This document shows positions 3,242 through 64,000 of a stretch of DNA of 64,000 bases, in pieces; position 1 is the first letter of the stretch, and the number at the start of each line of letters is the position of its first letter. Position numbers and translations under genes: made by a program. The notes below the pieces were generated by a model. It was not told where the DNA came from. It made no database searches and saw only the letters and a list, made by a program, of their open reading frames with translations. This DNA comes from Isurus oxyrinchus (Eukaryota). The stretch spans positions 86,862,001-86,926,000 of the forward strand of contig JANJGN010000020.1 of NCBI GenBank assembly GCA_026770705.1, in the 5' to 3' direction.

Positions 3242-6200
3242 ATTATTCATTCACAGGATGTGGGCTTTGCTGGTTGGGCCAGCATTTATTGCCATCTCTA
3301 GTTGCCCTTGAGAAGGTGTTGAGGGCTGTTTTCTTGAACTGCTGCAGCTCCTGTGATGTTGGTACACCCACAGTGCTGTTACGAAGGGAGTAGTTCCAAG
3401 ATTTTGACCCAGCAACAATGAAGGAATGGCGTCATATTTCCAAATCAGGATGCTAAGTGACTTGGAGGGGAACTTCCAGGTGGTGGTGTTCCCATCTATC
3501 TGCTGCTCGTCTTTCCAGATGGTAGTGGTTGTGAGTTTGGAAGGTGCTGTCGAAGGAGCCTTGGTGAATTCTTGCAGTGCATCTTGTAGATGCTACACAC
3601 TGCCGCTACTATGCGTCGGTGGTGGAGGGATTGAATATTTGTGGCTATGGTGCCAATCAAATGGGTTGCTTTGTCCTGGACGATGGTCAAGCTTCTCGAG
3701 TGTTGTGGGAGCTGCACTCGTCCAGGCAAGTGGAGAGTAGTCCATCACACTCCTGACGTGTGCCTTGCAGATGGACAGGCTTTGGGGGGCAGGGGATCAG
3801 GTGGAGAGTTACTCATCGCACGATTCCTAGCCTCTGACCTGCTTTTGTAGCCACAGTATTTATGTGGCCAGTCCACTTCGGTTTCTGGTCAATGTTAACC
3901 TCCGGATATTGATAGTGGGGGATTCAGTGATGGTAATGCCATTGAACATCAAGGGGCAATGGTGAGATTCTCTCTTGTTGGAGATGGTCATTGTGTGACA
4001 CTTGTGTGGCGCGAATGTTACTTGCCACTTGTCAGCCCAAGCCTGGATATTGTCCAGGCTTTGCTGCATTGGGACATGACCTGCTTCAGTATCTGAGGAG
4101 TTGCGAATGGTGATGATTATTGTGCAATGATCAGCAAACATCCCCACTTCTGACCTTATGATGGAAGGAAGGTCATTAATGAAGCAGTTGAAGAAGGTTG
4201 GGCCTAGGACACTACCCTGAGGAACTCCTGCAGTGATGTCCTGGAGCTGAGATGACTGACCTCCAACTGCCACAACCATCTTCCTTTGTGCTAGGTATGA
4301 CTCCAACCAACATAGAGTTTTCCTCCTGATTCCCACTGATTCCAGTTTTGCTTGGGAACCTTGATGCCACACTTGATCAAATGCTGCCTTCATGTCAAGG
4401 GCAGTCACTCTCACCTCACCTGTGGAGTTCAGCTCTTTTGCCCATGTTTGAACCAAGGCTGTAATGAGGTCAGGAGCTGAGTGGCCTCGGCAGAACCCAA
4501 ACTGGGCATCAGTGATCAGGTTACTGCTAAACAAGTGCTGCTTGATAGAACTGTTGATGACCCCTTCCATTATTGATGAACGAGAGTAGACTGATGGGGC
4601 TGTAGTTGGCCCGGTTGGATTTGTCCTACTTTTTGTGTCCTATTTTTTGTATGTCCTACCCACCTGGGCAATTTTCCACATAGCCAGGCAGATGCCAGTG
4701 TTGTAGCTGTACAGAGACAGCTTGGCTAGGGGCATGACAAGTTCTGGAGCACAATTCTTCTGTACTATTGCTGGAATGTTGTGAGGGCCCATAGCCTTTG
4801 AAGTATCCAGTGCCTTCAGCCGTCTTTTGATATCACGTGGAGTGAATCCAATTGGCTGAAGACTGGCACCTGTGATGTTGGGGACCTCCAGAGGAGGCCG
4901 AAATGGATCATCTACTTAGCACTTCTGGCTGAAGATTGTTGCGAATGCTTCAGCCTTATCTTTTGCACTGCTGTGCTGGGCTCCTCCATCATTGAGGATG
5001 GGGATACTTGTGGAGCCTCCTCCACCAGTGAGTTGTTTAATTGTCCACCACCATTCATGACAGTATGTGGCAGGACTGCAGAGCTTAGATCTGAACCGTT
5101 GGTTGTGGAATCGCATAGTTATGTCTATCACTTAACAAAAACAGAATTACCTGGAAAAACTCAGCAGGTCTGGCAGCATCGGTGGAGAAGAAAAGAGCTG
5201 ATGTTTCGAGTCCTCATGACCCTTCAACAGAACTAGGTGAATCCAAACGTTTCAGTACAGCTACAACAACTGCTGAGTTTTTCCAGGTAATTCTGTTTTT
5301 GTTTTGGATTTCCAGCATCCGCAGTTTTTTTGTTTTTATGTCTATCACTTGCTGCTTATGCTGTTTAGCATGCAAGTAGTCCTGTGTTTTTGCTTTACCA
5401 GGTTGATACCTCTTTTTTTTTTAAAAAAGGTATGCCTGGTGCTGCTTCTGGCATGCCTCCCGTATTCTTCATTGAACCAGGGTTGATCCCCTGGCTAGAT
5501 GGTAATGGTAGAGTGGGGGATATGTCGGGCCATGATGTTACAGATTGTATTCGAGTACAATTCTGCTGCTACTGATGGCCCACAGCGCCTCATGGATGCC
5601 TTGAGTTGCTAGATCTGTTCGAAATCTATCCTATTTAATGCGGCGGTAGTGCCACACAACACTATAGAGGGTATCCTCAATGTGAAGGTGGGACTTTGTC
5701 TCCACAATGACTGTACGGTGGTCACCCCTACTGATACTGTCATGGACAGATGTATCTGTGGTAGGCAGGTTGGTGAGGATGAGGTGAAGTATGTTTTTTC
5801 CCCTCTTTTTGGTTCCCTCACCACCTGCCGCAGACCCAGTTTAGCAGCTATGTCATTTAGGATTTGGCCAGCTACCGAGCCACTCTTGGTAATGGTCATT
5901 GAAGTCCCCCACCCAGAGTACATTCTACGCTCTTGCCACACTCAGTGCTTCCTCCAAGTAGTGTTCAACATAGAGGAGCACTACTTCCTCAGCTGAAGGA
6001 GGGCAGTACGTGGTAATCGGCAGGAGGTTTCCTTGCCCATGTTTGACTTGATGCCATGAGACTTCATGTGGTCCGGGGTCGATGTTGAGGACTCCCAAGC
6101 TAACTCTCTCCTGACTGTATCTCACTGTGCCACCACCTTTGCTGGGTCTGTCCTGCCGGTGGGACAGGGCATACCAAGGGATAGTGATGATGGTGTCTGG

Positions 6201-16679: not shown

Positions 16680-16785
16680 ATAAAAAAAACAGAAAATGCT
16701 GGAAAAACTCAGCAGGTCTAACAGCATCTGTGGAGAGAAAGACAGGGTTAACGTTTTGAGTCTGTATGACTCTTCTTCAGAGCTG
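16680..16785 (-). mobile_element. Penelope-like terminal module (older subfamily) with canonical-core hammerhead remnant
   Basis: Minus strand: ct CTGAAGA A GAGTC ataca GACTC aAAA CGTT AAC. Confidence 0.75.
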
Positions 16786-18102
16786 CGAGTAGTTAAGGAA
16801 AACATCAAACTTAAGGAAAAAGCAGAGAACTACACAAAGATGTAGATCGGATGATTGGTCAGAATAAAAAGAACAGCAGAGATGACTAAAAGGTCAATTA
16901 GAAAAAGGAAAGAGTATAAGAAGAAGCTAGCTAGATGTGTAAAAATGATAGTAAGAGTAGGTAAAGTGAGTTCTGGTCCTCTAGAGAGTGACAATGGGGA
17001 ATTAATAGTAGATAATAAAGAAATGGCGGATGAAATGAACAAATATTTTGCTCCTGTCTTCATTACAGAAGATACAAAAAACATCCTGTAATAGCTGTAA
17101 ATCAAGAGGTGGAAGGGAGAGGGGAACGGTGAAATTGCAATCACCAGGGAAGCAATTCTGAGCAAACTGATGCAGCTGCGGGCTGACAAGTCTCCAGATC
17201 CCGGTGGACTTTATCCTAGGGTCTGAATGAGGTAGTAGATGCGTTGATGTTGATTTTCCAAAATTCACTAGATTCTGGAAAAGTTCTGTCAGACTGAAAA
17301 GTAGTGAATATAACCCCTCAATTCAAGAAGGGACCGGAGCAAAAAAACAGAAAACTATAGGCCAGTTAGCTTGATGTCTGTCATGGGGAAGGTGTTAGAA
17401 TCGATCATTAAGGGCACATAGAAAAACTGAAGGTAATCGGGAAGAGTTTTTTTGAAAGGGAAATCATGTTTAACCAATTTATTGGAGTTCTTTGAAGAAG
17501 TAACATGCACTGTGGTTAAAGGGAGCCTGAAGATGTATTGTGCTTGGATTTCCAAAAGGCATTTAATAAGATGCCACATCAAAGGTTATTGCAGAAAATA
17601 AAAGCTCGTGTTGTAGTGGGTAACGTATAACATTGGTTGGCTTGCAGAAAACAGAGTATGCATAAATGGGTCTTTTTCTGATCAGCAGGATGTGACAAGT
17701 GGAGACCCGCAGGAATCTGTGCTGGGGCCACAAATTTTTACAATTTACATCAATGACTTAGATAAGGGGAGCGAAGGCATGGTAGCTAAATTTGCAATGA
17801 CACAAAGATAGATAGGAAAGTATGTTGTGAAGAGAACATGAGGAAGTTGCAAACAATATAGATAGGTTCAGTGAGGGGCGAGGATCTGGCAGATGGAGTA
17901 TAATGTGGGAGAATGTGAAGTTGTTCACTTTGGCAGGAGAAACAAAATAACAGAACTACTCCAAAATTCTGAGGTGCAGAGGAATCTTAGGAGTTCCAGT
18001 GCATGAATCACAAAAAGTAGTTTGCAGATACAGCAAGTAATTAAGAAAGCAAATGGAATGCCAGCCCTTATTACAAGAAGAATTGAATTGAAAAGTAAGG
18101 AT

Positions 18103-18324
18103 AAAAGCAAAATACGGCGGATGCTGGATATCTGAAACAAAAACAGAAAATGCTGGAAAAGCTCAGCAGGTCTAGCAGCATCTGTGGATAGAGAAACAGA
18201 GTTAATGTTTCGAATCTGTATGACTCTGGAAAATGGCCATACGGACTCAAAACATTAACTCTGTTTCTCTCTCCACAGATGCTGCCAGACCTGCTGAGTT
18301 TTTCCAGTATTTTATGTTTTTGTG
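18103..18324. mobile_element. Penelope-like palindromic module (older subfamily), 14-bp TSD with 1 mismatch
   Basis: tgaaaagtaaggat 18089-18102 / tgaaaaataaggat 18325-18338; inverted arms. Confidence 0.82.
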
Positions 18325-25600: not shown

Positions 25601-26109
25601 GTCCTGCCCTTTTCAGATCTATGCATATACACTGTAAATTAAATTTAGATCCTATGGTATTCCCTCTTTATCTGATCCCACCGAGACATTACTATTTCTT
25701 ACTCTAGTCTATCTGTGGTGGTCCACCTTGTCGATATATCAGCAATTACATTGTCATGGTCCAACTCTGGTTTCTCTTCAGATTGTATAGATCTTTCTCC
25801 CTTTACTAAAGATTTTTGTGGAGAGGAGCACTCAGAGTTTAAATTAAAAAACAAACTTTTTGTTGACTGGCAATTACATTGTTAAGACAACTGCTTGTTG
25901 AAACAGGTGATGGGCATTGGTTCACCTATCAAAATTGAATAAATATGTACAGCTAAATCACTCCAGCGTGGGAGGGACTGAGAAAGTTTGCTGCACCGAA
26001 GAGCTGTCTTGAGGATAAACCAGCTTGAGGTAAAAGACTAGCTTTGGACTCAATCTTCCATTACAAGCACTTATTGTGACTAACACACCTTCAACTGCAG
26101 CATTCCTTT

Positions 26110-28609: not shown

Positions 28610-28709
28610 NNNNNNNNNNNNNNNNNNNNNNNNNNNNNNNNNNNNNNNNNNNNNNNNNNNNNNNNNNNNNNNNNNNNNNNNNNNNNNNNNNNNNNNNNNN
28701 NNNNNNNNN
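28610..28709. other. Assembly gap (100 N)
   Basis: Run of N. Confidence 1.
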
Positions 28710-30469: not shown

Positions 30470-31465
30470 TGAAGGAGGGTGGTAGGTGGTAATCAGCCTG
30501 ATAACCCAATTATATGGCCTGATGCCATGAGGCATCGGAGTCTGGCATCAATGTTGAAGACTGTCTTGAGAGCCATTCCTCCTTGCTGTAAACCACTGTA
30601 CTGCCACTTCTGGTGGGTCTATGCTGCTGGTGGGACAGGATATCCCAGGGGTAGGTGATAGAGGTATCTGAAACATTAGCTGTAAGGTTTGATTCAATGC
30701 GTATGACTATGTCAGGCTGTTGCTTGAATTGTCTGTAGGGCAGCTCTCCCAATTTTGGCGCACGTCTTCAGATGTTAATAAGGATGACTTTGAATGGTTG
30801 ACTGGGTGTGCATTTGTCGTTTCCAGTGCCGAAGTTGATGCCAGATGGTCTGTCCACTTCTATAATTTTTTTGGCTTTTCTGTAGCAGTTTGATAAAACT
30901 GAGTGCCTTGTTAGCCCAGTTCAGAAGACAGTTAAGAATTGAGCACATTCGTTTAGATAATATCACCAACTTCAACACCTCTGTGTTCTTTTGTCTGTGA
31001 TATCTTTTGATGATCTGCTCCTATCCTAACAACCCCCCCCACCCCCCCCCCCCCCCCCCACTTCTCCCCCCCCACCCCACCTTAAACCACCTTATATTTC
31101 CCTCTCCTTGTAAAGAAAGATCAGTTTCTGTTGAAGGGTCATGAGGACTCGAAACGTCAACTCTTTTCTTCTCCGCCGATGCTGCCAGACCTGCTGAGTT
31201 TGTCCAGGTAATTCTGTTTTTGTTAAGAATTGACATGTTGGTCTGAGTCATATATAAGCCAGACTAAGTAGATTTCTGTCCCTGAAGGACAGATGGATTT
31301 TTATGATTATCCAGTAGTTTCATGTTCGGCATTGCTAATCTTAGCATTTTATTCCAGATTTGTTAATTTGAATTTATATTCCACAAGCTGCGGTGATGGG
31401 ACTTGAACTTGTCCAGATATCTGGATTACTAGCCCAATACCATTATCACTAAGCTACTATCCCAG
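30470..31465 (-). mobile_element. 5' part of family B LINE (tRNA-like head + APE start), interrupted by a Penelope module
   Basis: Homologous to 5990-6720; PKLGELPYRQFKQQPDIVI; B-box-like gttcaagtccc on the minus strand at ~31398-31408. Confidence 0.8.
30943..31221 (+). mobile_element. Penelope-like 3' terminal fragment, 12-bp TSD, hammerhead fold at ~31124-31162
   Basis: TSD gttaagaattga at 30931-30942 / 31222-31233. Confidence 0.85.
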
Positions 31466-32124
31466 TAAACATCTCCAACAAGCAGGGCATCAGGATTTGT
31501 TTGAGAAAGCTGAGAGAGAGAAGAGGGAGGGAGGATAACAGGTGCTGAAGTATGGCATTTTGGGTGAGAGCCAAACGTGATGGCTTCCAGCTTGTTAATA
31601 TTTTGCTGTTTTAAAAACATGATTTGCATGTTAATGAAATTCATTTTCATTTTTGAGGCCTTTTGGGACAGTTATGATTGGGTGCATTTGTCATTTTAAA
31701 TTTGATTCCACCTTGCTAGCCATATTCATAAACCCTGTAGTCTTCATATATTCCAATTTGTTCCTATCCTGTCTCACATTAAATAATATTTTTGCATTGT
31801 TTCTGTATTTTCAGACCAGCATTAGCTGCATGTTCCACAGAGTTTGAAATCTTCATTCCTATCTTCAAATTTCTTTATGATCTCACCCTACCTAGACTAT
31901 CTTTCCAGCATCCTCCACCTTCCCTGTCTTCTTCAGAGCTTTTTGGTGATCAGACTGATATATTGCACAATTTCCCCCTTACCACCATGAACAAAGTCTT
32001 AGTACACTGGCCATACTCTTATTAAATTTTCCCCTTGCAGCTCTTTATTTCTCCGTTTCTTTCACTACCCTTAATCTTCATAAAACCTAGACTTTCAGAA
32101 AACCAATGTTTTCATCAACCTGTA

Positions 32125-32228
32125 ATGTTAACTCTGTTTCTCTCTCTATAGATGCTGACCTGCTGGCCACTTCTATCATTTTCTGTTTCTTTTCAGATTT
32201 CCAGCATATGCAGTATTTTGTTTTTATC
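32125..32228 (+). mobile_element. Old Penelope-like terminal fragment
   Basis: gttaactctgtttctctct..gatgctgacctgctg..gatttccagcat. Confidence 0.6.
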
Positions 32229-34495: not shown

Positions 34496-35209
34496 ATCAA
34501 CTAATACCATTTTTGCAATTATTTCTATCACATCAATTTTAGTGGAACATCAATCAAATATATTTGGTACCTAAGCATCATTCTGAATAGTGAAAAACAA
34601 TGCTAATTGTTTCTTACTTAAGCCATATCTTAATCCTTATAAGCTGTCGTAAGTAAAATTTGATCTACCTTTAAAATTTAGCAGAAAATAGATGTATTCA
34701 CCTGTATTTGAAAGGAACTGGACAATACAGCAGGAGACAAGTTATGTATTAATATGTCTGGAGTTTTAAGATTAGGGAAACCAGGATAAAGTTAGGGAAA
34801 CCAGGATATAGTCCTTGGATGTGTTCAACTGCCCAGTTATATATGGCACAAAGGCCAAGAGGCCTGAATTTGAATAGAAGCTGCTGGATGGTGTTGGCAG
34901 AGCAGTAAAAACCAGTTAAACATGCAACTACCAGTTCACATAGTGCATCTTACTTCCTTTCCCAGCTTTTCCCATGACACATGGGTTGTTACAATACTGC
35001 CTGATTAGCCTTCACATTAACCATTGTGGGGTTTTTTGGTTTAAGCAGGTGGTTTTACAGCCAGCTGCCCTTCCTGTCATTAACTCTCCCCACATATCCA
35101 GGCTGGGGACTGACACTGATACACTGACTTGCCTGCGCCAGTGGCTGTGTTCTTCTGAGAGTTCACAGAATTATTTGCTAGACTGTAGCACTTTATCCTT
35201 TTTTTCTAT

Positions 35210-38030: not shown

Positions 38031-39149
38031 TATCAGGAATTAGAAATATCTTCCAGTTGGTGGATTTCTAACATTGGAGTCTCATTTTAAATACTTGTTC
38101 CAACCTCTAGGGTCAAGTTTTAAAAAAAATTGCAATTCTGCTGTCAAGAGTAGGAACTGACTGCAGAGCTGTGATTGGAGGAACAGTGAGCACGGGAGGG
38201 ACAGAACTGTTCCTGTAGTCGTCAATTCTGTCTAGCCCATGTTGGCTGCTCTGTGTCCTCCAATCACAGGTTTCCTCCCTCCTATTCCTGCTGCTCCTCC
38301 AGAGACAGAATCTGTGATCAGTAGAGCAGCGAGGGTGGGAGGGAAGGAACCTGTGATTGGAGGAGCTGTTATTCTGATCAATCCTGCTACTGCCATGCAA
38401 GAAACTTTCAGTTGCAGTGTCATCAATCATTTGACATCCTCCAGGAGACCGAGGAGGAGGGAACCTATGTAAGTAACATGGTCGGGGGAGCAATTACTCA
38501 GCCTTGTGCCAGTGCAGACAGGCTGCCGTCTGCAACTTGAGCCACTCTAGGGGAACTGGAGAGGTCTAATTCTGACCCCCTTCTCTACTATTGGTACTGC
38601 ATTAGCCACCAATGAGTTATCTGTTAACTGGATATGGGGTTGTTGAATGAGAAGAGTGCTATGTCAGTGTGTTGGACAATCACAGCTAAGGTACAGAGTT
38701 GGCCATGCAAACTTTGCGAGGGAGTTGGGTGAGGGAGTGTAATTCGTCAGGAAGGGAGAGGGGTTTTTGTTCCCAACTCTGCTCCGTGTCTACTCCCAAT
38801 GTCCGAAATCTGCCCAGCCCTCCCATGTCAAACTGGAAATGTCGCTCACGAGGAGGCATGCTGTGGTGGTTATACTGTGGTTAACACACAGTAACCACAG
38901 GAAACCTCCTTCTCCCCCCCCACCTCCTCTGGCCCCCCACCCACCTTGGGTATCACTGATACTTTGGAAGAGTTCATATTCAGCTCCTTTATAATGAAGT
39001 AACAGGAAAATTGTCATCCTAATCTGGCCAGGTCAGGTGGCTGTTAGATTCAGAGTCCAAAAATGCTTTCATCTCATGGTACTTTTACAATTCCACCCAT
39101 TTGAAGTGCCCTAGAAACATTTTCATTTCATGACAGATGATACATATGA

Positions 39150-41060: not shown

Positions 41061-41554
41061 AATCCAAGATGATTTGGAAGAGCACCTCTTTACCCTACAG
41101 GAGTGTATTTCCTACTCTGTGTTGCTGATGGCTTTTTATTTTATTTAAGCTCGAGCATTTGTTTACAATATGGACAACCTTCAATTTACAGTGGTAGTTG
41201 GGGAAAGTTATATATAGTGTTTTTAAAAAAACTTCAGAAATCTCTTGGAAGCTGTAACTGATTTACCAACATAACTTGTAAATGAAAGTAAAATATTGGT
41301 AATACGTTTCAAAGCATTATTGTTGTTGGAGTATATGGGCAGGAGTCCTCTCCCCTTTCAACGGATCCTTTTACCCACCTCCAATATTCACCCTCCACCT
41401 GGACCCCTCCCTCTGGATTCTTACCTTCTCTTGATCTTTTCATTGAGAGCTTTCGGCGTGACATTGGTCATCTCAATTTCTCTGCTCCTCTCACCCATTC
41501 TAACCTGTCTCTCTCTGAACTTGCTGCACTCTGCTCTCTCAGGTCCAACCTTTT

Positions 41555-41950
41555 AGCGTTTTTTTTAAATTCCTGCTCCCACCCCACCCCCACTAGGGCT
41601 ATCTGTACCTTTCCTGTCCTGCTGTCTTCCCTTAATTAGCACATTCCTTTAGATAATATCACCACCTTCAACACCTCTTTGTCCTTTTGTCTGTGACATC
41701 TTTTGGTTATTTCCACCTATCACTGGCCCTCTACCTAGCTCCTCTTGTCCCAACCAACCATCCTCCACCCCCCCTTAAACCAGGTTATATTTCATCCCTT
41801 TTCTATTTCTACTTAGTTCTGTTGAAGGGTCATGAGGACTTGAAACGTCAACTGTGCTCTTCTCCGCCGATGCTGCCAGATCTGCTGAGTTTTTCCAGGT
41901 ATTTCTGTTTTTGTTTTGGATTTCCAGCATCCACAGTTCTTTGCTTTTAT
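41555..41950 (+). mobile_element. Penelope-like 3'UTR/terminal fragment with hammerhead fold (~41815-41853)
   Basis: Homologous to 63590-63985; agttCTGTTGAAGGGTCATGAGGACTtGAAACGTCaact. Confidence 0.85.
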
Positions 41951-42463
41951 ACCCTTGCCTTGTTTGTGGAAGTTTTCTATTTACAATTGTAAAAGCCTTT
42001 GTAACCCAAGATTATTTGTTAAGTCAGTTGAAAGGTTAAAAAATTAAGATGACAGTTCTATCCATAAAACTCAGTTAATGTTACTCTGTGATCTAAATTT
42101 GATATATACTAATTAGTTCCAATTCAGTGTTCAGTAAAAGTGGGAAAACAGTCTGTCTTACTTGAATAATTCATCAGCCACTGTCCAGAGCTTTGTCTCA
42201 TTACTGTGAAAGCTGTTGCCTGTCCAATTTCCATTTTCAATCCTGTAAGTGCTATTGACCCAAAAAACGCAGCTGAAACTTAATTATCCTTGCTTCAAAG
42301 TGTTATACCTTCACAGATGCATGCACTTAAATATTTATCCTCCCTTGTTGTATAGTTACTGGCATCAGATTAAAAATTAACTGAATTTTCATTTTATTTC
42401 CCCATTGTGATTTTTTTTTTTCTCCCAGTTGTCTGTGAAGGAAGAATTTCGGATTTAAAAAAA

Positions 42464-43780: not shown

Positions 43781-43857
43781 TTTAAAACTATATAGAATAT
43801 CACCTTGATTAACTTTTCAATAGCTTCCCAATTAAAGGAGAACATAAGAAATAGGAA

Positions 43858-44110
43858 ACAAAATCAGAATTACCTGGAAAAACTCAGCAGGTCCGGCAGC
43901 ATCAGCGGAGAAGAAAAGAGTTGACGTTTCGAGTCCTCATGACCCTTCGACAGAACTTGAGTTCGACAGAACTCAAGTTCTGTCGAAGGGTCATGAGGAC
44001 TCGAAACGTCAACTCTTTTCTTCTCCGCTGATGCTGCCGGACCTGCTGAGTTTTTCCAGGTAATTCTGATTTTGTTTTGGATTTCCAGCATCTGCAGTTT
44101 TTTTGTTTTT
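43858..44110. mobile_element. Penelope-like perfect palindromic module, 14-bp TSD
   Basis: TSD ataagaaataggaa at 43844-43857 / 44111-44124; ~109-bp arms (43856-43964, 43969-44077) around loop gaca. Confidence 0.92.
43976..44014 (+). ncRNA. Minimal type-I hammerhead-like ribozyme motif (variant core)
   Basis: AGUU-CUGUCGA-A-GGGUC-AUGAG-GACUC-GAAAC-GUC^AACU: stem I AGUU/AACU, stem II GGGUC/GACUC, palindromic ACGU stem III. Confidence 0.7.
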
Positions 44111-46010
44111 ATAAGAAATAGGAACATGAGTAGACAATTCGGCCCCTTGAGCCTGCACTGCCATTCAATAAGATCATGGCTGATCATCTTGTATTTCAAT
44201 TTCTACATTCCCATCTCTCTCCTATAACCTATGATTCCCTTGCCTAGCAAGAATCTACCTACCTCTGCCTTAAAAATATTCAATGACATCACCTCCAACA
44301 TCTTCTGAGGCAGAGAGTTGCAAAGTCGCACAATCCTCAGAGAAAAAATTTCACCTCGTCTCTGTCTGACCCTAATTTTAAAACAGTGTCCCATAGTTCT
44401 GGACTTCCTCACAAGAGGAAACATCCTTTCAACGTCCACTTTGTCAAGGCTGTTCAGGATCTTGTATATTTCAATCAATTCACCTCTTGCTCTTCTAAAC
44501 TCCAGTGGAAACAAGCCCAGTCTGTCCAGCCTTTCCTCATAAGACAACTCACTCATTCCAGGTATCAATCTGGTAAACCTCCTTTGAACCGCCTCCAATG
44601 CATTTACATCCTTCCTTAAGTAAGGAGACTAAAACTGCACACAGTATTCAAGATGTGGTCTCACCAATGGCCTGTATATCTGAAGCATAACATCCTTACT
44701 TTTATGTTCAATTCCTCTCTTAATAAAGGATAGCATTCCATTAGCTGCCTTAATTTCTTGCTGTACCTATCTTTTTGTGACTCGTACTCGAACACCGTAG
44801 ATTACTGTGCACCTCAGAATTATGCAGCTGTTCTACATTTAAGTAATACTGATTTTTTTGTTCTTCCTGGTAAAGTGAACAACTCCACATTTTCCCACAT
44901 TAAACTCCATCTGCCAGGTTTTTGCCCACTCACTCAACCTATCTATATCCATCTGCAACCTCCTCATGTCTTCTTCACAACCTACTTACCTACCTATTTT
45001 TGTGTCATCTGCAAATTTAGCTGCCATGTCTTCACTCCCCTCATCTAAGTCATTGATGTAAATCATAAAAAGTTAAGGTCCCAGAACAGACCCACGTGGG
45101 ACTCCACTCATCACATCCTGCCAATCTGAAAAAGACCCATTTATGCATAATCTCTGCTTTCTGCCAGCCAACCAATCTTCTATCCATGTTAATATGCTAC
45201 TCCCTATACCATGTGCTTTTACTTTTCATCATAACCTTTGATGTAGCACCTTATTAAATGCTTCCTGGAAATCCAAGTACAGTACGTCTACAGGCTCCCC
45301 TTTATCCACCATGCATGTTACTCCTTCAAAAAACTCCAATAAATTAGTTAAACATGATTTTCCTTTCGCAAAACCATGCTGACTCTTCCCAGTTACCTTC
45401 AGTTTCTCTAAGTGCCCAGCTATAGCCTCCTTAATGATCGATTCTAACAACTTTCCCACGACAGACATCAAGCTAACTGGCCTTTAGTTTCCTGTTTTCT
45501 GCTTCCCTCCCTTCTTGAATAGAGGGGTTATATTTGCTACTTTCCAGTCTGATGGAACCTTTTCAGAATCTAGTGAATTTTGGAAAATTAACACTAGCGC
45601 ATCGACGATCTCATTAGCCACCTCTTTTGAGACCTTAGGATGTAGTCCATTGGACCCGGAGACTTGCCAGCCCGCAGCTCCATCAATTTGCTCAGTACTG
45701 TTTCCCTAGCGATTTGAATTTCATCAAGTTCCCCTCTCCCCGTCACCTCCTGATTTGCAACTATTACTGGAATATTTTTTGTATCCCCAATAGCGAATAC
45801 ATAGGCAAAATATTTGTTCATTTCTTCTGCCATTTCCTTATTATCTTTTATTAACTTCCCACTGTCACTCTCAAGAGGACCAACACTCACTTTACCTACT
45901 CTTTTCCTCTTTAAATACCTGTAAAACTCTTGTTATCCATTTTTTACATTTCTAGCTAACTTCCTCTCCTACTCAAATTTCTTTCTCCTGATTAACCTTT
46001 TAGTCATTCT
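44111..46010 (-). mobile_element. Decayed CR1 LINE ORF2 + 3' end
   Basis: KSCLTNLLEFFE..YLDFQEAF; VQRRFTRLIPGM. Confidence 0.92.
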
Positions 46011-56834: not shown

Positions 56835-56937
56835 ACACAAAAACAGAATTACCTGGAAAAACTCAGCAGGTCTGGCAGCATCGGCGGAGAAGAAAAGAGT
56901 TGACGTTTCGAGTCCTCATGACCCTTCAACAGAACGG
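56835..56937 (-). mobile_element. Penelope-like ~100-bp terminal module, 14-bp TSD with 1 mismatch
   Basis: aatccttatcactg 56821-56834 / aatccttattactg 56938-56951; the copy ends at the hammerhead 5' edge. Confidence 0.85.
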
Positions 56938-57149: not shown

Positions 57150-58302
57150 GATTCCCCTCTTCTTAAAACAAAAGTAATCCTTAAGTTTATATAATCACAA
57201 TCAGTATATATTTTTCATTCAATATATTCACCTTATTCCCCTCAAAAAAAGAACATGTATAGATATGTCCATACAGAATATTTTTTTCTTCTGAAAAAGG
57301 CGTCATCTTGGAGTTCGCTCCTCTTTTGGTGAAGCAGCCAGATGATTGGTAGCTGCTATCAATCCATTTGGATCTTGGCAATCCTCCTTATTCTCAAGCG
57401 TCTGTTTTAAGTTTGCAATGTCAATTCATAATCTCTTCTCCTTAACGCACTTTGTAGAGTGAACATTTTCCCCAAAGTGACTTATTATCTATAAGACACT
57501 TGATAAGTATTGTTCCTGAATACCCTCTTCCATTTAAAATTTCTGCCAGTATCATTGATATAAAGAATGTCATATCTACTGCCTCAACAAGAGTGAGAGT
57601 CTCCGCTGCCCAACGTACTTTTAAAAACTTTTTGTACCTTTTTTAAATTCTCATGCCAGAGGGCAGCATTTGCCTTTTTCCCCTATGAAAAATATTATAA
57701 ATCCTCCTGCACTCGAAAATCTATTACGTAGATTTGCATAACATGCATCACTGAACTCAATCAGTTTCATTTTTCTAACATCACCCAAAGATGGGAATTT
57801 CAAAACACACTGCTCTGTTTTTAATTTTGTCAATATTTTGTTTGCCCAAATGATTTCTTCAATCTTGGGATCATTCATTTTAGTGCTCAATTCCAAAACG
57901 TCAAAACTGAAGTCTGGCCTTGTTCGTTTGCCTAGCCAATTGAGGTGCCCAATTTGACTTCTGAGTTCCTTTTTCTGTTTTAGAAGCCACTGTATCTTTC
58001 TGGGAGGCCATACCATGACTAATTGTAATGGGATTGACGTTCTCTAAGTAGGATTGCTGATGTAAAAGTATGTGTGATTCACTCTGCCTGATTTCCAATC
58101 CAGTATACAATGCACCAGAAGCCTGACCTCCAATTTTAAACTCCGTTCTGAGCCCATTAATGACAACCATTTCAAATTCGCTACTACCACCCCACAAAAA
58201 ATGTAGATTATAAAGATGCCTGCAAGTTTCCCTCCATGGTGCCAATAAAAAATTGCCAGGTCTGCTGCCAACTGAGGACAGCCCAACTTTAACAAAACTG
58301 AG

Positions 58303-58534
58303 GTAAAAGCAAAAAACTGCGGATGCTGGAAATCCAAAACAAAAACAAAAATACCTGGAAAAACTCAGCACATCTGGCAGCATCTGCAGAGAGGAGCACA
58401 GTTAACATTTCAAGTCTGAATGACCCTTCAACAGAACAGTTCTGTTGAAGGTTCATTCGGACTCGAAACGTTAACTGTGCTCCTCTCAGCAGATGTTGCC
58501 AGACCTGCTGAGTTTTTCCAGGTGTTTTTGTTTT
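58303..58534. mobile_element. Penelope-like palindromic module inserted in copia RT, 11-bp TSD
   Basis: TSD acaaaactgag at 58292-58302 / 58535-58545; removing the insert restores VWYFSVSSVLLKLGC; palindrome centre cagaac-a-gttctg. Confidence 0.9.
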
Positions 58535-61500
58535 ACAAAACTGAGCTCACTGAGAAATACCAAACTCGAAGCGCCATTTAAACCATTTACGCACTTATTT
58601 AGCTTCCAGAGAGTGTCTTCTGCGTTTGGCGCCTCTTTCGGTGGACAGAGAAAAACTTCCCTTTGAAGTTAATGTCCCTGCAAAAAGGCATCTTTAATAT
58701 CAGTGGAATAACAGTCCCAAGCATTTGTAGCTAATAGACCCAAAAAAATCTTCAGCATAATCGTTCTGCTGTAAGCGAATGTACTCTTACATCCTCGTCA
58801 GCCATTTTTTCTTCAAACCCTCGTGTCACTAATCTGCCTTCAGCTTTGTAAGCCCCGTTAGGAAGCACCTTTTCCATGCAGAGGCAGAGTTGATTATCCC
58901 CTATTTCGCACCTCTGTGTATACCCCAAATTCTTTCCAACTATGTAGTTCTAGCTTTGGCCTTTATTAATCCTTTATTAATTTATCATCTAATTTGTTTG
59001 GAGCTACTAAGACTTCTCGATCACATGGGCTTCTGCTCCTTGTAGCATTACCAGTCTCAGCCATATTTCTTGACCTTGTTAAGCTACGCCATCTATCCTG
59101 CCTTCTATCACACTCGACTGTTCCTGTTTGATCTCCCGCTCCCATTTATAGATGTTCTTTCAATAGTTCGCGATCTCTTCCTGAAGGCATGTTCACTCCC
59201 AGATCCACTGTTGAACTGATATTATGTTTCCATGCCTTCCATTTTTATACTTCATGTTCCCAATGCATAAGTTCAATCTCCTATCCTTCATTTTGTACAT
59301 TCCAGTGGCCTTCCCTGCTCTACCTACAAATGTTGCATCCTGCTGTTGATTGGTCCCTTCTGGCAAATATGTAACTTTAGTACCAGTTTTCAACAGTTGT
59401 CCTCTGGGACAAATTGCCTTATCTTGGTCATCCGAATTACAGCCTCCATCTTCAGATACCCTGTCAACTTCAGCTACCTGGCCCTCTCAATCATGGCTAT
59501 GATAAGTACATGATTCCTTGTCCCTTCCTACAACAGTCTCCAAATGCAAATTTGTAGTCCACACCAACTAACCTTGATGAGTGTTCCCAAATAGTCTGGT
59601 TCCCATGTTGTAAAAATAATTGTTTTACCATCTTTACCTATAATATTTCTCTGGCCTTTCTACTTGTTAAATCCCTCTCTTTTATAGTATACTCTGTCTC
59701 CCTGATTGAAAATAGATTTTGATGGCGTACATGATGTCTTAGAGCTCGCCGAATTCTTTCTGAAATTTTGGCTTTAAGGAACGTTCTCCTAATTGCGTGT
59801 AGTGCGTTTAAATGCTCAGAAAGGGTGGAGCTAATCATAGTGCCCTCAAGCTGGGGGATGATCAATCAGGTCTGAAGGAATTTTTTGGGTTTCTACCAAA
59901 AAACCAACTGATATGGACTATAGCCTCCAACCATCTGCAATGAATTCTTGGTATGGACAGCTCACACTAGAGCTGATAATTTGCAGTTTGGTCTATCTGC
60001 CAATATTTTACGAAGCATCTCATCTATCACCACGTGATTCCTTTCACACACTCTGTTACTAATAGGGCTCTCTGCTGCTCTATTAATAATGATTATATTC
60101 ACGTTTTTTCATATAACCCAAAACTCATCGTTAGTGAACTCCCACCCCATTACTCGTGAGGAGTTTTGCCACTGGTCCCAATCCGGTCCTTATCCACTTT
60201 TCCATTATCTGATCCACAATTATTTTCTTTTCTTTACTATGTATGATTGTCATCTGGCTAAACCTTGTGGCCAAATCGACGAAATGCAACTGCATTGAAA
60301 TCCCTCGCTAAGGGTCGACTCACTATGGGCTGCGACAGTGTCTTTTTGGATTTCTTATATATATCACATCTATGGCTTATCTCCTCTATAAGTTTAGTGT
60401 GCTCTCCATCCCTTAGCAAATTTTTTAATCTTTGTGAAGAACCTTTGTGGGCAAACTGCTGATGCAATTTTAACACAATTAGCTTTTTGTTTTCTAAATT
60501 CCTATCCCCTGATGCTAATAACACTTCTTTAGTCTCCTTAGTAGAAAAGTTAGGTTTCATTGAAGGAAGACAGTAGTGTTCAGATTGTGTAAATTGCAAA
60601 TCCACAGTTTTTCCAAATACAATAGCTTTGTTATTCCCCATGTCCAGCTTCATTTGCACTTTTTTCATCGATGACCTCAACAGCAACGATATTTCACGGG
60701 ACACTACGTCAGTACTGATGAAATGATTGATTCCAGCTATCTTACAGGGAATTATTACCCTTTTTAAAGATTTTAGGGTATTATCATCTCCAAATCTAAA
60801 GCTGGTGGAACTCTCAAATTCCTTAACCTTATTCCTTGTCATTTAAGGAGTCCAGGTAGTATTTTAACCAGTCTATTCCACAGAATGTAGACGTGCATCC
60901 TCCATCTAGCACCACACAGTTGAAGGATTCTGCAACCAAGACATTCATTACTGGGCTGAAACTTCATATAACCAATACAATGCCCTCTCTTTGGTCAATA
61001 TCTCCATCTTCTTCCGAGTCTTGTCTCATGTTTAATTTTGAACACATTATACCATTTAGGACAGTTCATTGTATAATTTTATTTTGAATTGCATCTAAAA
61101 CACCGATTGACCACACCCTGGGCCTTTCTGGGGCTCATCTTTTGTTGTTATTCCCCAATTCTGTTCTCCTGCCATAATTGTCAAAGGTGTTTCTATCCTC
61201 GTTGTTTCTAGTTACATATCTCCTTTCGTACTGATGCCTGCATCCTGTTTCTAGACAATCTCGCCATCCTGTTCACGTTGTATCCTCCATTTTCTGTCTT
61301 GCCACTGAATGACACATTTGCACCATGAATGCTGCCAAGAAGGAATGTTTTCCGAGAATTTTTTTTTAGATCTTCTGACATCTGTTCTAGCAGTGTATGT
61401 CTTTCTGCAAATTTAACTCCCATCAAAACTAGAAACCTGTCTGTATTCGATGCTCTGGCGCGGTCAGTAACTGAAATGCCAGCACGAATTGCAAAAATTC

Positions 61501-62609: not shown

Positions 62610-62950
62610 GTAAGTGAAACATAATTTATGTTATTGGAAATTCTCCTGTGTAAATGTCAAGTATTGAGGGAATGAAAAAAATTAAAAAATTTTTTTGTTT
62701 TAATAAGAATTGACCTGACAAAAACTTACAGGATCAAATGTTTGTTAAAACGATATGCCAAAACGATGAAAAATAATGAAACAATGTTGATGTATCATGA
62801 GTTAAATATTGTAAACTTGGTCTTGACATTCAGAATCTTGCTCTGGCACTTCTGAAATGAAATAAATCTGCAAGCCCATATTTGCATATTCTGCAAGTCC
62901 TCAGTCTTTTCTACGTGCTCCCTCTGTCCATCATCAGGTGATCTCAGAGA

Positions 62951-63988
62951 TAAAAACAAAAAAACTGCAGATGCTGGAAATCCAAAACAAAAACAGAATT
63001 ACCTGGAAAAACTCAGCAGGTCCGGCAGCATCAGCGGAGAAGAAAAGAGTTGACGTTTCGAGTCCTCATGACCCTTCGACAGAACTTGAGTTTGAATCCA
63101 AGAAAGAGTTGAAATATAAGCTGGTTTAAGGTGTGTGTGTGGGGGGCGGAGAGATAGAGAGAGAGAGAGAAGTGGGGGGGTGGGGGGCGGTGGGTGTGTG
63201 GTTGTGGGGACAAACAAGCAGTGATAGAAGCAGATCATCAAAAGATGTCAACGACAATGGTACAATAGAACACATAGGTGTTAAAGTTGGTGATATTATC
63301 TAAACGAATGTGCTAATTAAGAATGGATGGTAGGGCACTCAAGGTATAGCTCTAGTGGGGGTGTTTTTTTATTATATAATGGAAATAGGTGGGAAAAGGA
63401 AAATCTTTATAATTTATTGGAAAAAAAAGGAAGGGGGAAACAGAAAGGGGGTGGGGATGGGGGAGGGAGCTCACGACCTAAAGTTGTTGAATTCAATATT
63501 TCCCCCTTTTTTTTCCAATAAATTATAAAGATTTTCCTTTTCCCACCTATTTCCATTATATAATAAAAAAAACACCCCCACTAGAGCTATACCTTGAGTG
63601 CCCTACCATCCATTCTTAATTAGCACATTCGTTTAGATAATATCACCAACTTTAACTTTAACACCTATGTGTTCTATTGTACCATTGTCGTTGACATCTT
63701 TTGATGATCTGCTTCTATCACTGCTTGTTTGTCCACACAACCACACACCCACCGCCCCCCCCCCCCACCTCTCTATCTCTCCGCCCCCCACACACACACC
63801 TTAAACCAGCTTATATTTCAACTCTTTCTTGGATTCGAACTCAAGTTCTGTCGAAGGGTCATGAGGACTCGAAACGTCAACTCTTTTCTTCTCCGCCGAT
63901 GCTGCCAGACCTGCTGAGTTTTTCCAGGTAATTCGGTAATTCTGTTTTTGTTTTGGATTTCCAGCAACTGCAGTTTTTTTGTTTTTAT
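62951..63988. mobile_element. Young Penelope-like element: ~490-bp head-to-head inverted 3'UTR/pLTR arms around the ORF C-terminus
   Basis: Arms ~62951-63439 and ~63499-63988 are reverse complements. The spacer encodes NIEFNNFRS* on the minus strand (63471-63500), the type of ending I recall for GIY-YIG Penelope ORFs. Confidence 0.88.
63844..63882 (+). ncRNA. Minimal type-I hammerhead-like ribozyme motif (variant core); mirror copy on the minus strand at ~63047-63087
   Basis: Identical to 43976-44014. Confidence 0.7.
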
Positions 63989-64000
63989 AATTGAGTAAAC

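What the first reader, a model, noticed from the sequence alone, without database searches (positions are those of the whole stretch)
43976..44014. Young Penelope family carries a minimal hammerhead ribozyme with a non-canonical catalytic core (CUGUYGA)
Seen: the 39-nt motif AGUU CUGUCGA A GGGUC AUGAG GACUC GAAAC GUC^AACU folds as a type-I hammerhead, with stem I AGUU/AACU, 5-bp stem II, a GUC triplet and a loop-less palindromic ACGU stem III. It recurs at ~5197-5236(-), ~31124-31162(+), ~41815-41853(+), 43976(+ and mirror), ~56898-56935(-), ~58438-58476(+ and mirror) and 63844(+ and mirror). All these copies have U at the normally invariant A6 position (CUGUCGA/CUGUUGA), whereas the older copy at ~16747-16783 has canonical CUGAAGA. 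Established: Penelope-like elements carry minimal hammerheads thought to cleave as dimers. Inference: the A6U change was fixed in an actively transposing lineage, so it is either a tolerated or compensated core variant, or a ribozyme retained for a non-catalytic role.
Basis: partly seen in the sequence, partly recalled or inferred. Interest (0 to 1): 0.8.

Follow-up and report, generated by a model that had tools for sequence, protein, structure and literature searches.

The report
Shark retrotransposon ribozyme with altered core
A mobile element in what looks like a shark genome kept multiplying after its small self-cutting RNA motif changed a normally fixed catalytic-core letter, which suggests the cutting is weak or unnecessary for jumping while the RNA shape is still preserved.

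Summary
The motif is real. It is the minimal type-I hammerhead of a Penelope-like element (PLE) pseudo-LTR. Evidence: an ORF fragment matching RT + GIY-YIG PLEs, two 3' ends about 35 nt apart, target duplications and inverted arms. U6 occurs in 10 of 11 core-bearing arms (7 insertions, at least three sub-lineages); the one A6 copy belongs to an older clade. A white-shark reference protein also reads out U6 by translation. No arm starts at the predicted cut (0 of 15). Published work shows PLE insertion in vitro needs no hammerhead cleavage, and position-6 changes cripple hammerheads. Lineage-defining changes still avoid stems and core (0/30 vs 4/8 free sites; small sample). Best reading: a crippled ribozyme, copied from uncleaved RNA, with its fold still maintained. 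PLE hammerheads and a natural A6C variant are known. I found no report of A6U, but the key 2017 survey could not be read. Cleavage is untested. New variant of a known kind; interest 0.42.

The parts
43976..44014 (+). Minimal type-I hammerhead-like motif. Stem I 43976-79/44011-14; core C3-A9 43980-86; extra A 43987; stem II 43988-92/43998-44002; G12-A15.1 44003-06; C15.2-G16.2 44007-08; U16.1 44009; C17 44010
   Evidence: matches the Fig S3 consensus of PMC4209133 except at position 6
43983..43983 (+). U6 in place of the consensus A6
43844..44124 (.). Whole inverted insertion: 14-bp target duplication (43844-57, 44111-24), left arm about 43858-43966(-) ending at the first 3' end, right arm 43970-44110(+) ending at the second
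43919..43957 (-). Mirror U6 motif, identical to 43976-44014
44076..44110 (+). Optional 'tail' of about 35 nt between the two discrete 3' ends
   Evidence: compare PMC11167929 and PMC8557442
62950..63989 (.). Long inverted insertion holding the longest pseudo-LTR arms, with U6 motifs at 63048-63086(-) and 63844-63882(+); no target duplication found (11 nt from the window end)
63471..63500 (-). Probable last codons of the PLE ORF (translation ends NIEFNNFRS-stop, about 390 nt upstream of C3); assignment is inference, too short for a homology test
   Evidence: no tblastn hit
41334..41549 (+). PLE ORF fragment (region before the RT domain), contiguous with a U6 pseudo-LTR; internally deleted copy
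   Evidence: 65% to P0001 over 72 aa; 44% over 61 aa to P0067, which has RVT_1 and GIY-YIG
41550..41951 (+). Pseudo-LTR of an intermediate sub-lineage, U6 motif at 41815-41853
30937..31224 (+). 5'-truncated pseudo-LTR, U6 motif 31124-31162, 12-bp target duplication
5134..5337 (.). Inverted insertion, U6 motif 5196-5234(-), short second arm 5270-5337(+), 15-bp target duplication
56837..56936 (-). Solo short copy starting at stem I, U6, 14-bp target duplication (1 mismatch)
58305..58534 (.). Inverted insertion of an older U6 sub-lineage (different loop II, H17 = U); motifs 58400-58438(-) and 58438-58476(+)
16682..16784 (-). Older-clade copy, the only one with A6; decayed at G12 and stem I
18101..18323 (.). 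Older-clade inverted insertion truncated at the core on both arms; position 6 not readable
32124..32227 (+). Highly diverged older-clade remnant without the core

Best explanation
This is the hammerhead homologue in the pseudo-LTR of an endonuclease-bearing, Poseidon/Penelope-type PLE lineage of a shark-like genome (shown: anatomy and homology). A6 changed to U once in a source element and was passed through several successive sub-lineages (shown within the window; direction inferred from outgroups). Self-cleavage is probably much reduced (inferred from published position-6 mutagenesis; not measured). The element spreads anyway because its RT copies uncleaved RNA: it starts at two internal sites about 95 and 130 nt past C3 and usually stops at the 5' edge of the motif, often priming on both target strands to give inverted arms (ends shown; mechanism inferred from the Anolis PLE study). 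The rest of the fold is still kept, most likely as a structural element of the RNA 5' end or RNP, possibly with slow protein-assisted cleavage (inferred).
For: U6 in 7 of 7 insertions of one clade, A6 in the sister clade; a tree built without position 6 separates them at 99/97 (bootstrap rough). Outgroups carry A6: 3 of 3 hammerheads found beside distant PLE ORFs with position 6 free and 56 of 56 in Fig S3 of PMC4209133 (that descriptor required A6). 0 of 15 arms begin at the predicted cut (+31); 9 of 11 short arms begin at -19..+7. PMC11167929: hammerhead mutants do not affect insertion in vitro, unprocessed RNA is the main substrate, and cleavage needs the protein. PMC8557442: Naiad PLEs proliferate without canonical hammerheads. 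PMC9901934: mutants in the CUGA region are low-activity and not rescued by any second mutation except the 3-8 swap. PMC3088659 and PMC7151607: A6C is weak in Mg2+. Lineage-defining changes within the U6 group fall at 4 of 8 free positions and 0 of 30 stem/core positions (Fisher p 0.0009), whereas private post-insertion changes hit stem/core positions 8 times.
Against: No cleavage data. The constraint test is small and post hoc. One shared stem change was set aside as CpG decay; with adverse choices p is 0.004-0.024, and against the downstream tail it is 0.037 as counted and 0.13 at worst. Four of the 8 private changes lie at arm boundaries. No two-sided covariation. Absence of cut-site starts also holds for the older A6 clade and for the cleavage-competent Anolis element, so it does not show that U6 is inactive. 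Only one A6 copy is available. No published A6U rate constant was seen.
Confidence: 0.55

Rival explanations
1. U6 is a tolerated, physiologically active core variant. The PLE protein, dimer geometry or another cation restores useful cleavage, as Mn2+ does for natural A6C.
For: All other core positions, G10.1-C11.1, the 15.2-16.2 palindrome and NUH stay intact across U6 sub-lineages, and changes fall only where the catalytic consensus is free, including H17 C/U. Natural A6C cleaves at about 0.3 per min in Mn2+. The Anolis PLE hammerhead is protein-assisted. In silico, U6 makes the open-core state no less accessible than A6 in the young background (1.6 vs 5.4 kcal/mol for the 39-mer; similar in longer contexts).
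Against: No second-site core change that could compensate. No double mutant rescued CUGA in a type III hammerhead. Minimal PLE hammerheads are already slow with A6. The predicted active dimer lies about 8 kcal/mol above the co-fold MFE for the youngest copies. No head-to-tail tandem in the window.
Confidence: 0.2
2. The motif is a dead relic. The U6 elements (perhaps non-autonomous, mobilised in trans) simply carry it, and its apparent conservation reflects an overlapping promoter, splice or protein-binding sequence, or small numbers.
For: The only ORF-linked U6 copy is internally deleted. The downstream 90 nt are well conserved even in the older clade, so the region may be constrained for other reasons. 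No two-sided covariation. Constrained-vs-tail contrast is weak (p 0.037-0.13).
Against: Changes inside the motif land only on positions the published hammerhead consensus leaves free, which a promoter would not predict. The white-shark copy has U6 with a different but still paired stem II base.
Confidence: 0.2
3. Chance resemblance to a hammerhead, or an assembly/sequence artefact.
For: No Rfam hammerhead hit; fold no more stable than shuffles.
Against: 0 hits in 600 shuffles vs 7. Position in a PLE pseudo-LTR. A model built only from window copies ranks canonical PLE hammerheads of two unrelated loci at E 0.005 and 0.36 (rough E-values; a third was missed). U6 is in 7 separate insertions and in an independent reference record.
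Confidence: 0.03

Closest known systems
Minimal type-I hammerheads of metazoan PLE pseudo-LTRs (Cervera & de la Pena 2014, PMC4209133)
   Same: Short stem I, extra nucleotide after A9, G10.1-C11.1, 5-bp stem II, loop-less palindromic stem III, NUH, location in the pseudo-LTR, mostly solo truncated copies.
   Different: U at position 6; all 56 listed examples have A6 (the descriptor demanded it). Their core variant is U3-A8. No cartilaginous fish is among the 56.
Poseidon element of Anolis carolinensis, PAc (Frangieh et al. 2024, PMC11167929)
   Same: Hammerhead near the RNA 5' end, two internal RT start sites defining a tail, AT-rich targets, both strands primed, uncleaved RNA as template.
   Different: Its hammerhead cleaves when protein is added. 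Its ORF starts at stem II; no open frame from that point was found here.
Natural A6C hammerhead of phage Bcep176 (PMC3088659, PMC7151607)
   Same: Natural substitution at core position 6.
   Different: C not U; a single phage sequence, experimentally weak in Mg2+ and good in Mn2+; not a multi-copy retroelement lineage.
Naiad/Chlamys PLEs (Craig et al. 2021, PMC8557442)
   Same: Successful PLEs without a canonical hammerhead; inverted arms and tail.
   Different: N-terminal endonuclease and no full motif; the element here matches C-terminal-endonuclease PLEs and keeps a complete motif with one core change.
Non-LTR retrozymes (PMC7229834; bioRxiv 10.64898/2026.07.22.740005)
   Same: Non-coding, PLE-related repeats with type-I hammerheads in vertebrates.
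   Different: Retrozymes are head-to-tail tandems; copies here are dispersed or head-to-head.

Membership tests
Penelope-like element (C-terminal endonuclease type) | ORF homologous to PLE RT + GIY-YIG proteins | tested here: met
   Fragment only: 41334-41549 matches P0067 (RVT_1 E 1.2e-9; GIY-YIG E 4.8e-4, below its cut-off) at 44% over 61 aa. The RT and endonuclease domains themselves are not in the window.
Penelope-like element (C-terminal endonuclease type) | Optional 30-40 bp tail (two discrete 3' ends) | tested here: met
   15 arms: 8 end at +129..+132 and 7 near +92..+96 from C3 (two of the 7 overshoot to +103/+105 in BLAST)
Penelope-like element (C-terminal endonuclease type) | 5'-truncated and inverted copies with target duplications | tested here: met
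   5 inverted insertions; duplications of 12-15 bp at 6 of 9 insertions examined
Penelope-like element (C-terminal endonuclease type) | Full-length element with partial-tandem pseudo-LTRs | not testable with these tools
   None in the window; no eukaryotic genome collection available
Penelope-like element (C-terminal endonuclease type) | Clade assignment by RT phylogeny (Poseidon vs Neptune etc.) | not tested
   No RT in the window; the Poseidon label is inferred from domain order of homologues and recalled family features
Minimal type-I PLE hammerhead | Stems I and II, extra nucleotide after A9, G10.1-C11.1 | tested here: met
   92% of cells paired vs 18-49% for slid partners; descriptor test
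Minimal type-I PLE hammerhead | Palindromic 15.2-16.2 and NUH triplet | tested here: met
   Complementary or wobble 15.2-16.2 in 10 of 11 core-bearing arms (one CpG-decayed); NUH in 11 of 11
Minimal type-I PLE hammerhead | Core consensus CUGANGA (A6) | tested here: not met
   U6 in 10 of 11 arms
Minimal type-I PLE hammerhead | Compensatory covariation in stems | tested here: inconclusive
   0 of 11 pairs change on both sides; 5 further pair types, all one-sided; only 8 distinct sequences
Minimal type-I PLE hammerhead | Self-cleavage after NUH as dimer or with protein | not testable with these tools
   Needs an assay
Non-LTR retrozyme | Head-to-tail tandem units each with a hammerhead | tested here: not met
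   Same-strand copies are at least 1.5 kb apart and belong to separate insertions

The most novel reading that the evidence does not exclude
A shark PLE lineage replaced a hammerhead core nucleotide that no second mutation rescues in protein-free assays, yet kept every other catalytic-consensus position through successive bursts. This would be either a ribozyme whose active site is completed by the element's own protein, or a ribozyme fold converted into a non-catalytic signal that marks where reverse transcription ends. Such families are invisible to CUGANGA-based screens.
Probability: 0.25. Interest if true: 0.72.

Novelty: new variant of a known kind. Interest (0 to 1): 0.42.

Why it matters
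What PLE hammerheads do is an open question: published views range from precursor processing to mere parasitism of the element (PMC4209133, PMC8557442), and cleavage is dispensable for insertion in vitro (PMC11167929). A lineage that kept amplifying with a lesion at position 6, beside an A6 sister clade in the same genome, is a natural experiment that separates catalysis from fold. It also shows that screens requiring CUGANGA miss abundant families. The ribozyme class, its PLE setting and natural position-6 variation (A6C) are all already known, which caps the surprise.

Tried and rejected
Rfam scan: no hammerhead family at E<=1; the microRNA hits over the mirror copies are hairpin artefacts below gathering scores. 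DNA pattern scan of prokaryotic genome contigs for stray copies: 0 hits. Word-based protein search with the ORF fragment: none scored. Protein search with one ribozyme-spanning translation at near lengths: none; the profile search at longer lengths gave one record among 8000 scored candidates. PDB search with the full PLE protein: 0. Idea that U6 was selected to lock the core in a hairpin: rejected, since swapping to A6 in silico gives equal or stronger misfolds in the young background (the monomer part had an indexing error and is superseded). Idea that U6 serves a coding overlap: no frame through the core is open in all U6 sub-lineages. Idea that U7 is CpG decay of C7: unlikely, 4 of 4 copies decayed vs 3 of 16 at other CpGs, so C7 is probably derived in the youngest copies. 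Mirror arms as dimer partners: rejected. An intron ending at stem I, as in D. virilis: an AG after a pyrimidine-rich tract is present but no good donor was found; left open. Names and organisms of the PLE protein hits could not be obtained. Lunse et al. 2017 (RNA Biol 14:1499) is not held, so whether it lists position-6 variants is unchecked.

Full report
OBSERVATION. The 39-mer is at 43976-44014(+) as described. A mismatch scan gave 12 hits, 11 with a complete core: ten read CUGUYGA and one, 16746-16784(-), reads CUGAAGA. The ten U6 arms are seven insertions, because three are inverted pairs. A covariance model built from the 11 arms found no further core-bearing copy. A descriptor taken from the published PLE consensus with position 6 freed hits 7 of the 11 arms (the other four fail through decay or boundary mismatches) and nothing else in the window; 600 dinucleotide shuffles gave 0 hits. 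Rfam shows no hammerhead at E<=1. The 39-mer folds no better than shuffles (z 0.06), so the hammerhead reading rests on pattern and context, not on energy. The single A6 copy has lost G12 and has a mismatched stem I.

WHAT THE ELEMENT IS. The motif lies about 95-130 nt from the 3' end of a repeat whose longest arm here is about 550 nt. Four features identify a Penelope-like element. (1) The U6 copy at 41815 is contiguous with an ORF fragment, 41334-41549, that matches 72 proteins at E<=0.001 (a few are spurious). One of them, P0067, is a 924-aa RT + C-terminal GIY-YIG protein (44% over 61 aa). (2) The 15 arms end at two discrete sites: 8 at +129..+132 and 7 near +92..+96 from C3. This is the optional tail that PMC11167929 traced to two internal RT start sites and that PMC8557442 lists as a PLE hallmark. 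(3) Five insertions are inverted, and in 4 of the 5 one arm ends at each site. (4) Target duplications of 12-15 bp flank 6 of 9 insertions examined, including a perfect 14-mer at the focal one. The host looks like a shark: the only record that matched a translation of the repeat is a Carcharodon carcharias gene model. The window's species is not determined.

HISTORY OF U6. Over about 95 nt the young copies differ by 0-7 changes, the 58.4-kb pair by 14-19 from them, and the older clade by 19-25 from the young copies. A tree built from stem II onward, so excluding position 6, separates the three older-clade arms, including the A6 copy, from all ten U6 arms (99/97; bootstrap unsettled; midpoint root only). 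U6 is therefore inherited and predates the youngest family. Direction comes from outgroups. Five PLE loci fetched from prokaryotic assemblies (30-36% identity) were scanned with position 6 free; two loci yielded three hammerheads, all A6, and three loci yielded none. All 56 motifs in Fig S3 of PMC4209133 have A6, but that survey's descriptor required cuganga, so it could not have seen U6. The white-shark protein carries an antisense translation of the repeat reading N-D-S-S-T-E. In that frame window U6 copies read D-P-S-T-E or E-P-S-T-E and the A6 copy reads D-S-S-S-E. The threonine implies U6 and the first serine implies the older A-U pair in stem II. This is one copy, read through a protein, but it places U6 outside this window and before the stem II change.

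IS THE FOLD STILL CONSTRAINED? The structure pairs 92% of cells against 18-49% for slid partners, but no pair changes on both sides and the covariation score does not exceed shuffles. Within the U6 group, alleles shared by two or more arms fall at N7, two loop II positions and H17: 4 of 8 positions that the published consensus leaves free, and 0 of 30 stem or core positions (p 0.0009). One shared stem allele (C11.1 to U in two arms) was set aside as CpG decay. Keeping it, dropping N7, or both gives p 0.004, 0.007, 0.024; against the downstream tail p is 0.037 as counted and 0.13 at worst. Private changes hit stem/core positions 8 times, four at arm boundaries. The signal suggests continued constraint after A6U but is small, post hoc and cannot separate RNA structure from an overlapping promoter or binding site.

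WOULD IT CUT? PMC9901934 reports that all single and double mutants in the CUGA region of a type III hammerhead were low-activity except the 3-8 swap (passage; I did not see the A6U value). Natural A6C is slow in Mg2+ and good in Mn2+. Minimal PLE hammerheads are slow even with A6 and inactive as monomers. No compensating core change exists here. Folding does not discriminate: the double-hammerhead of the youngest copies is -10.1 kcal/mol against a co-fold MFE of -18.2, and A6 in the same background misfolds as much or more. The mirror arms cannot be dimer partners: a read-through RNA of the focal insertion forms one hairpin of about 120 bp at -227.6 kcal/mol, and same-strand copies are at least 1.5 kb apart.

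HOW IT MOST LIKELY WORKS. Of 15 arms, four are long (5' ends at about -232 to -418, one with ORF sequence beyond) and 11 are short. Nine of the 11 begin between -19 and +7 of C3 (the -19 value read by eye), the others at +25 and +63, and none at the predicted cut, +31. The templates of these insertions were therefore uncleaved. This matches the Anolis PLE, where hammerhead mutants insert normally and no RNA-seq reads end at the cut, and it holds for the older clade too, so it shows dispensability rather than U6 inactivity. Inferred cycle: transcription starts in the pseudo-LTR just upstream of the motif; the PLE protein nicks AT-rich DNA, often on both strands; RT starts at the two internal sites and runs to the RNA 5' end or stalls at the motif's 5' edge; two such cDNAs joined head-to-head give the mirror insertions. 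Cleavage is not a required step, so A6U could be fixed. I give 0.55 to a crippled ribozyme with a retained fold, 0.2 to an active protein- or ion-compensated variant, 0.2 to a dead relic and 0.03 to chance.

KNOWN AND NEW. It works like, and descends from, the minimal PLE hammerheads, but fails their A6 criterion, so I file it as a variant and not as a demonstrated ribozyme. Eight library searches returned no paper whose listing, or whose text where I read it, describes an A6U hammerhead or a shark PLE hammerhead in detail; one preprint counts retrozymes in one cartilaginous fish. The library lacks most subscription papers. Lunse et al. 2017, the largest survey of PLE hammerhead variants, was not held; I saw only its title and a review's sentence. 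Papers seen: PMC4209133 main text parts 1-3 of 4 and the whole supplement PDF as text; PMC11167929 parts 1-2 of 4 and supplement 1 (supplements 2-4 unread; they may bear on end mapping); PMC7151607 parts 1-2 of 4; bioRxiv 10.64898/2026.07.22.740005 parts 1-3 of 5 (supplements closed; they may list shark families); PMC3088659 passages and section 8; passages only of PMC9901934, PMC8557442, PMC6765202, PMC2377424, PMC7229834, PMC11014351, PMC6961537 and PMC8906547. The Poseidon label and the reading of 63471-63500 as the ORF end rest partly on recalled family features.

VERDICT. Observation confirmed; interpretation partly supported; new variant of a known kind; interest 0.42. The value lies in a ready-made natural comparison, A6 clade against U6 clade, for the open question of why PLEs keep hammerheads.

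Noticed in passing
window 25762-25884 (+): U5 snRNA match at 54.6 bits (gathering 40), with several mismatches and a degenerate 3' hairpin; probably a pseudogene.
   Followed up: no
window 35080-35156 (-): Weak twister-P1 ribozyme match (32.3 bits, gathering 67.2, E 0.0046) next to an RT-bearing repeat that starts near 35198; may be chance.
   Followed up: no
window 62950-63989: The two arms differ at sub-lineage-diagnostic sites: the left arm shares two alleles with the 43.9-kb pair and the right arm does not, suggesting two templates in one inverted structure or two events.
   Followed up: partly
window 41775-41818, 63804-63847 (+): Pyrimidine-rich tract ending in AG at the first two bases of stem I, like the intron end at helix I reported for D. 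virilis Penelope; no convincing donor upstream.
   Followed up: partly
window 43844-43857 and 44111-46008: The focal insertion landed at the end of a LINE-like repeat; the 18.2-kb and several other copies also abut or interrupt other repeats.
   Followed up: no
window 38256-38364: Imperfect inverted repeat of about 110 bp unrelated to the PLE family, with sub-threshold microRNA-family matches.
   Followed up: no
window 57651-58401 and 60258-60842 (-): Degenerate ORFs that look by eye like LTR-retrotransposon pol fragments, no Pfam hit; the 58.4-kb PLE insertion interrupts this region.
   Followed up: partly
window 28610-28709: 100-N assembly gap.
   Followed up: no
L001:637-3320, L005:1045-4290: Intact-looking PLE ORFs (RT + GIY-YIG) with canonical minimal hammerheads inside assemblies filed as bacterial genomes; probably eukaryotic host contamination.
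   Followed up: partly
P0073 residues 17-53: A white-shark Ig V-set gene model begins with an antisense translation of this repeat: an exonised copy or a gene-model artefact.
   Followed up: partly
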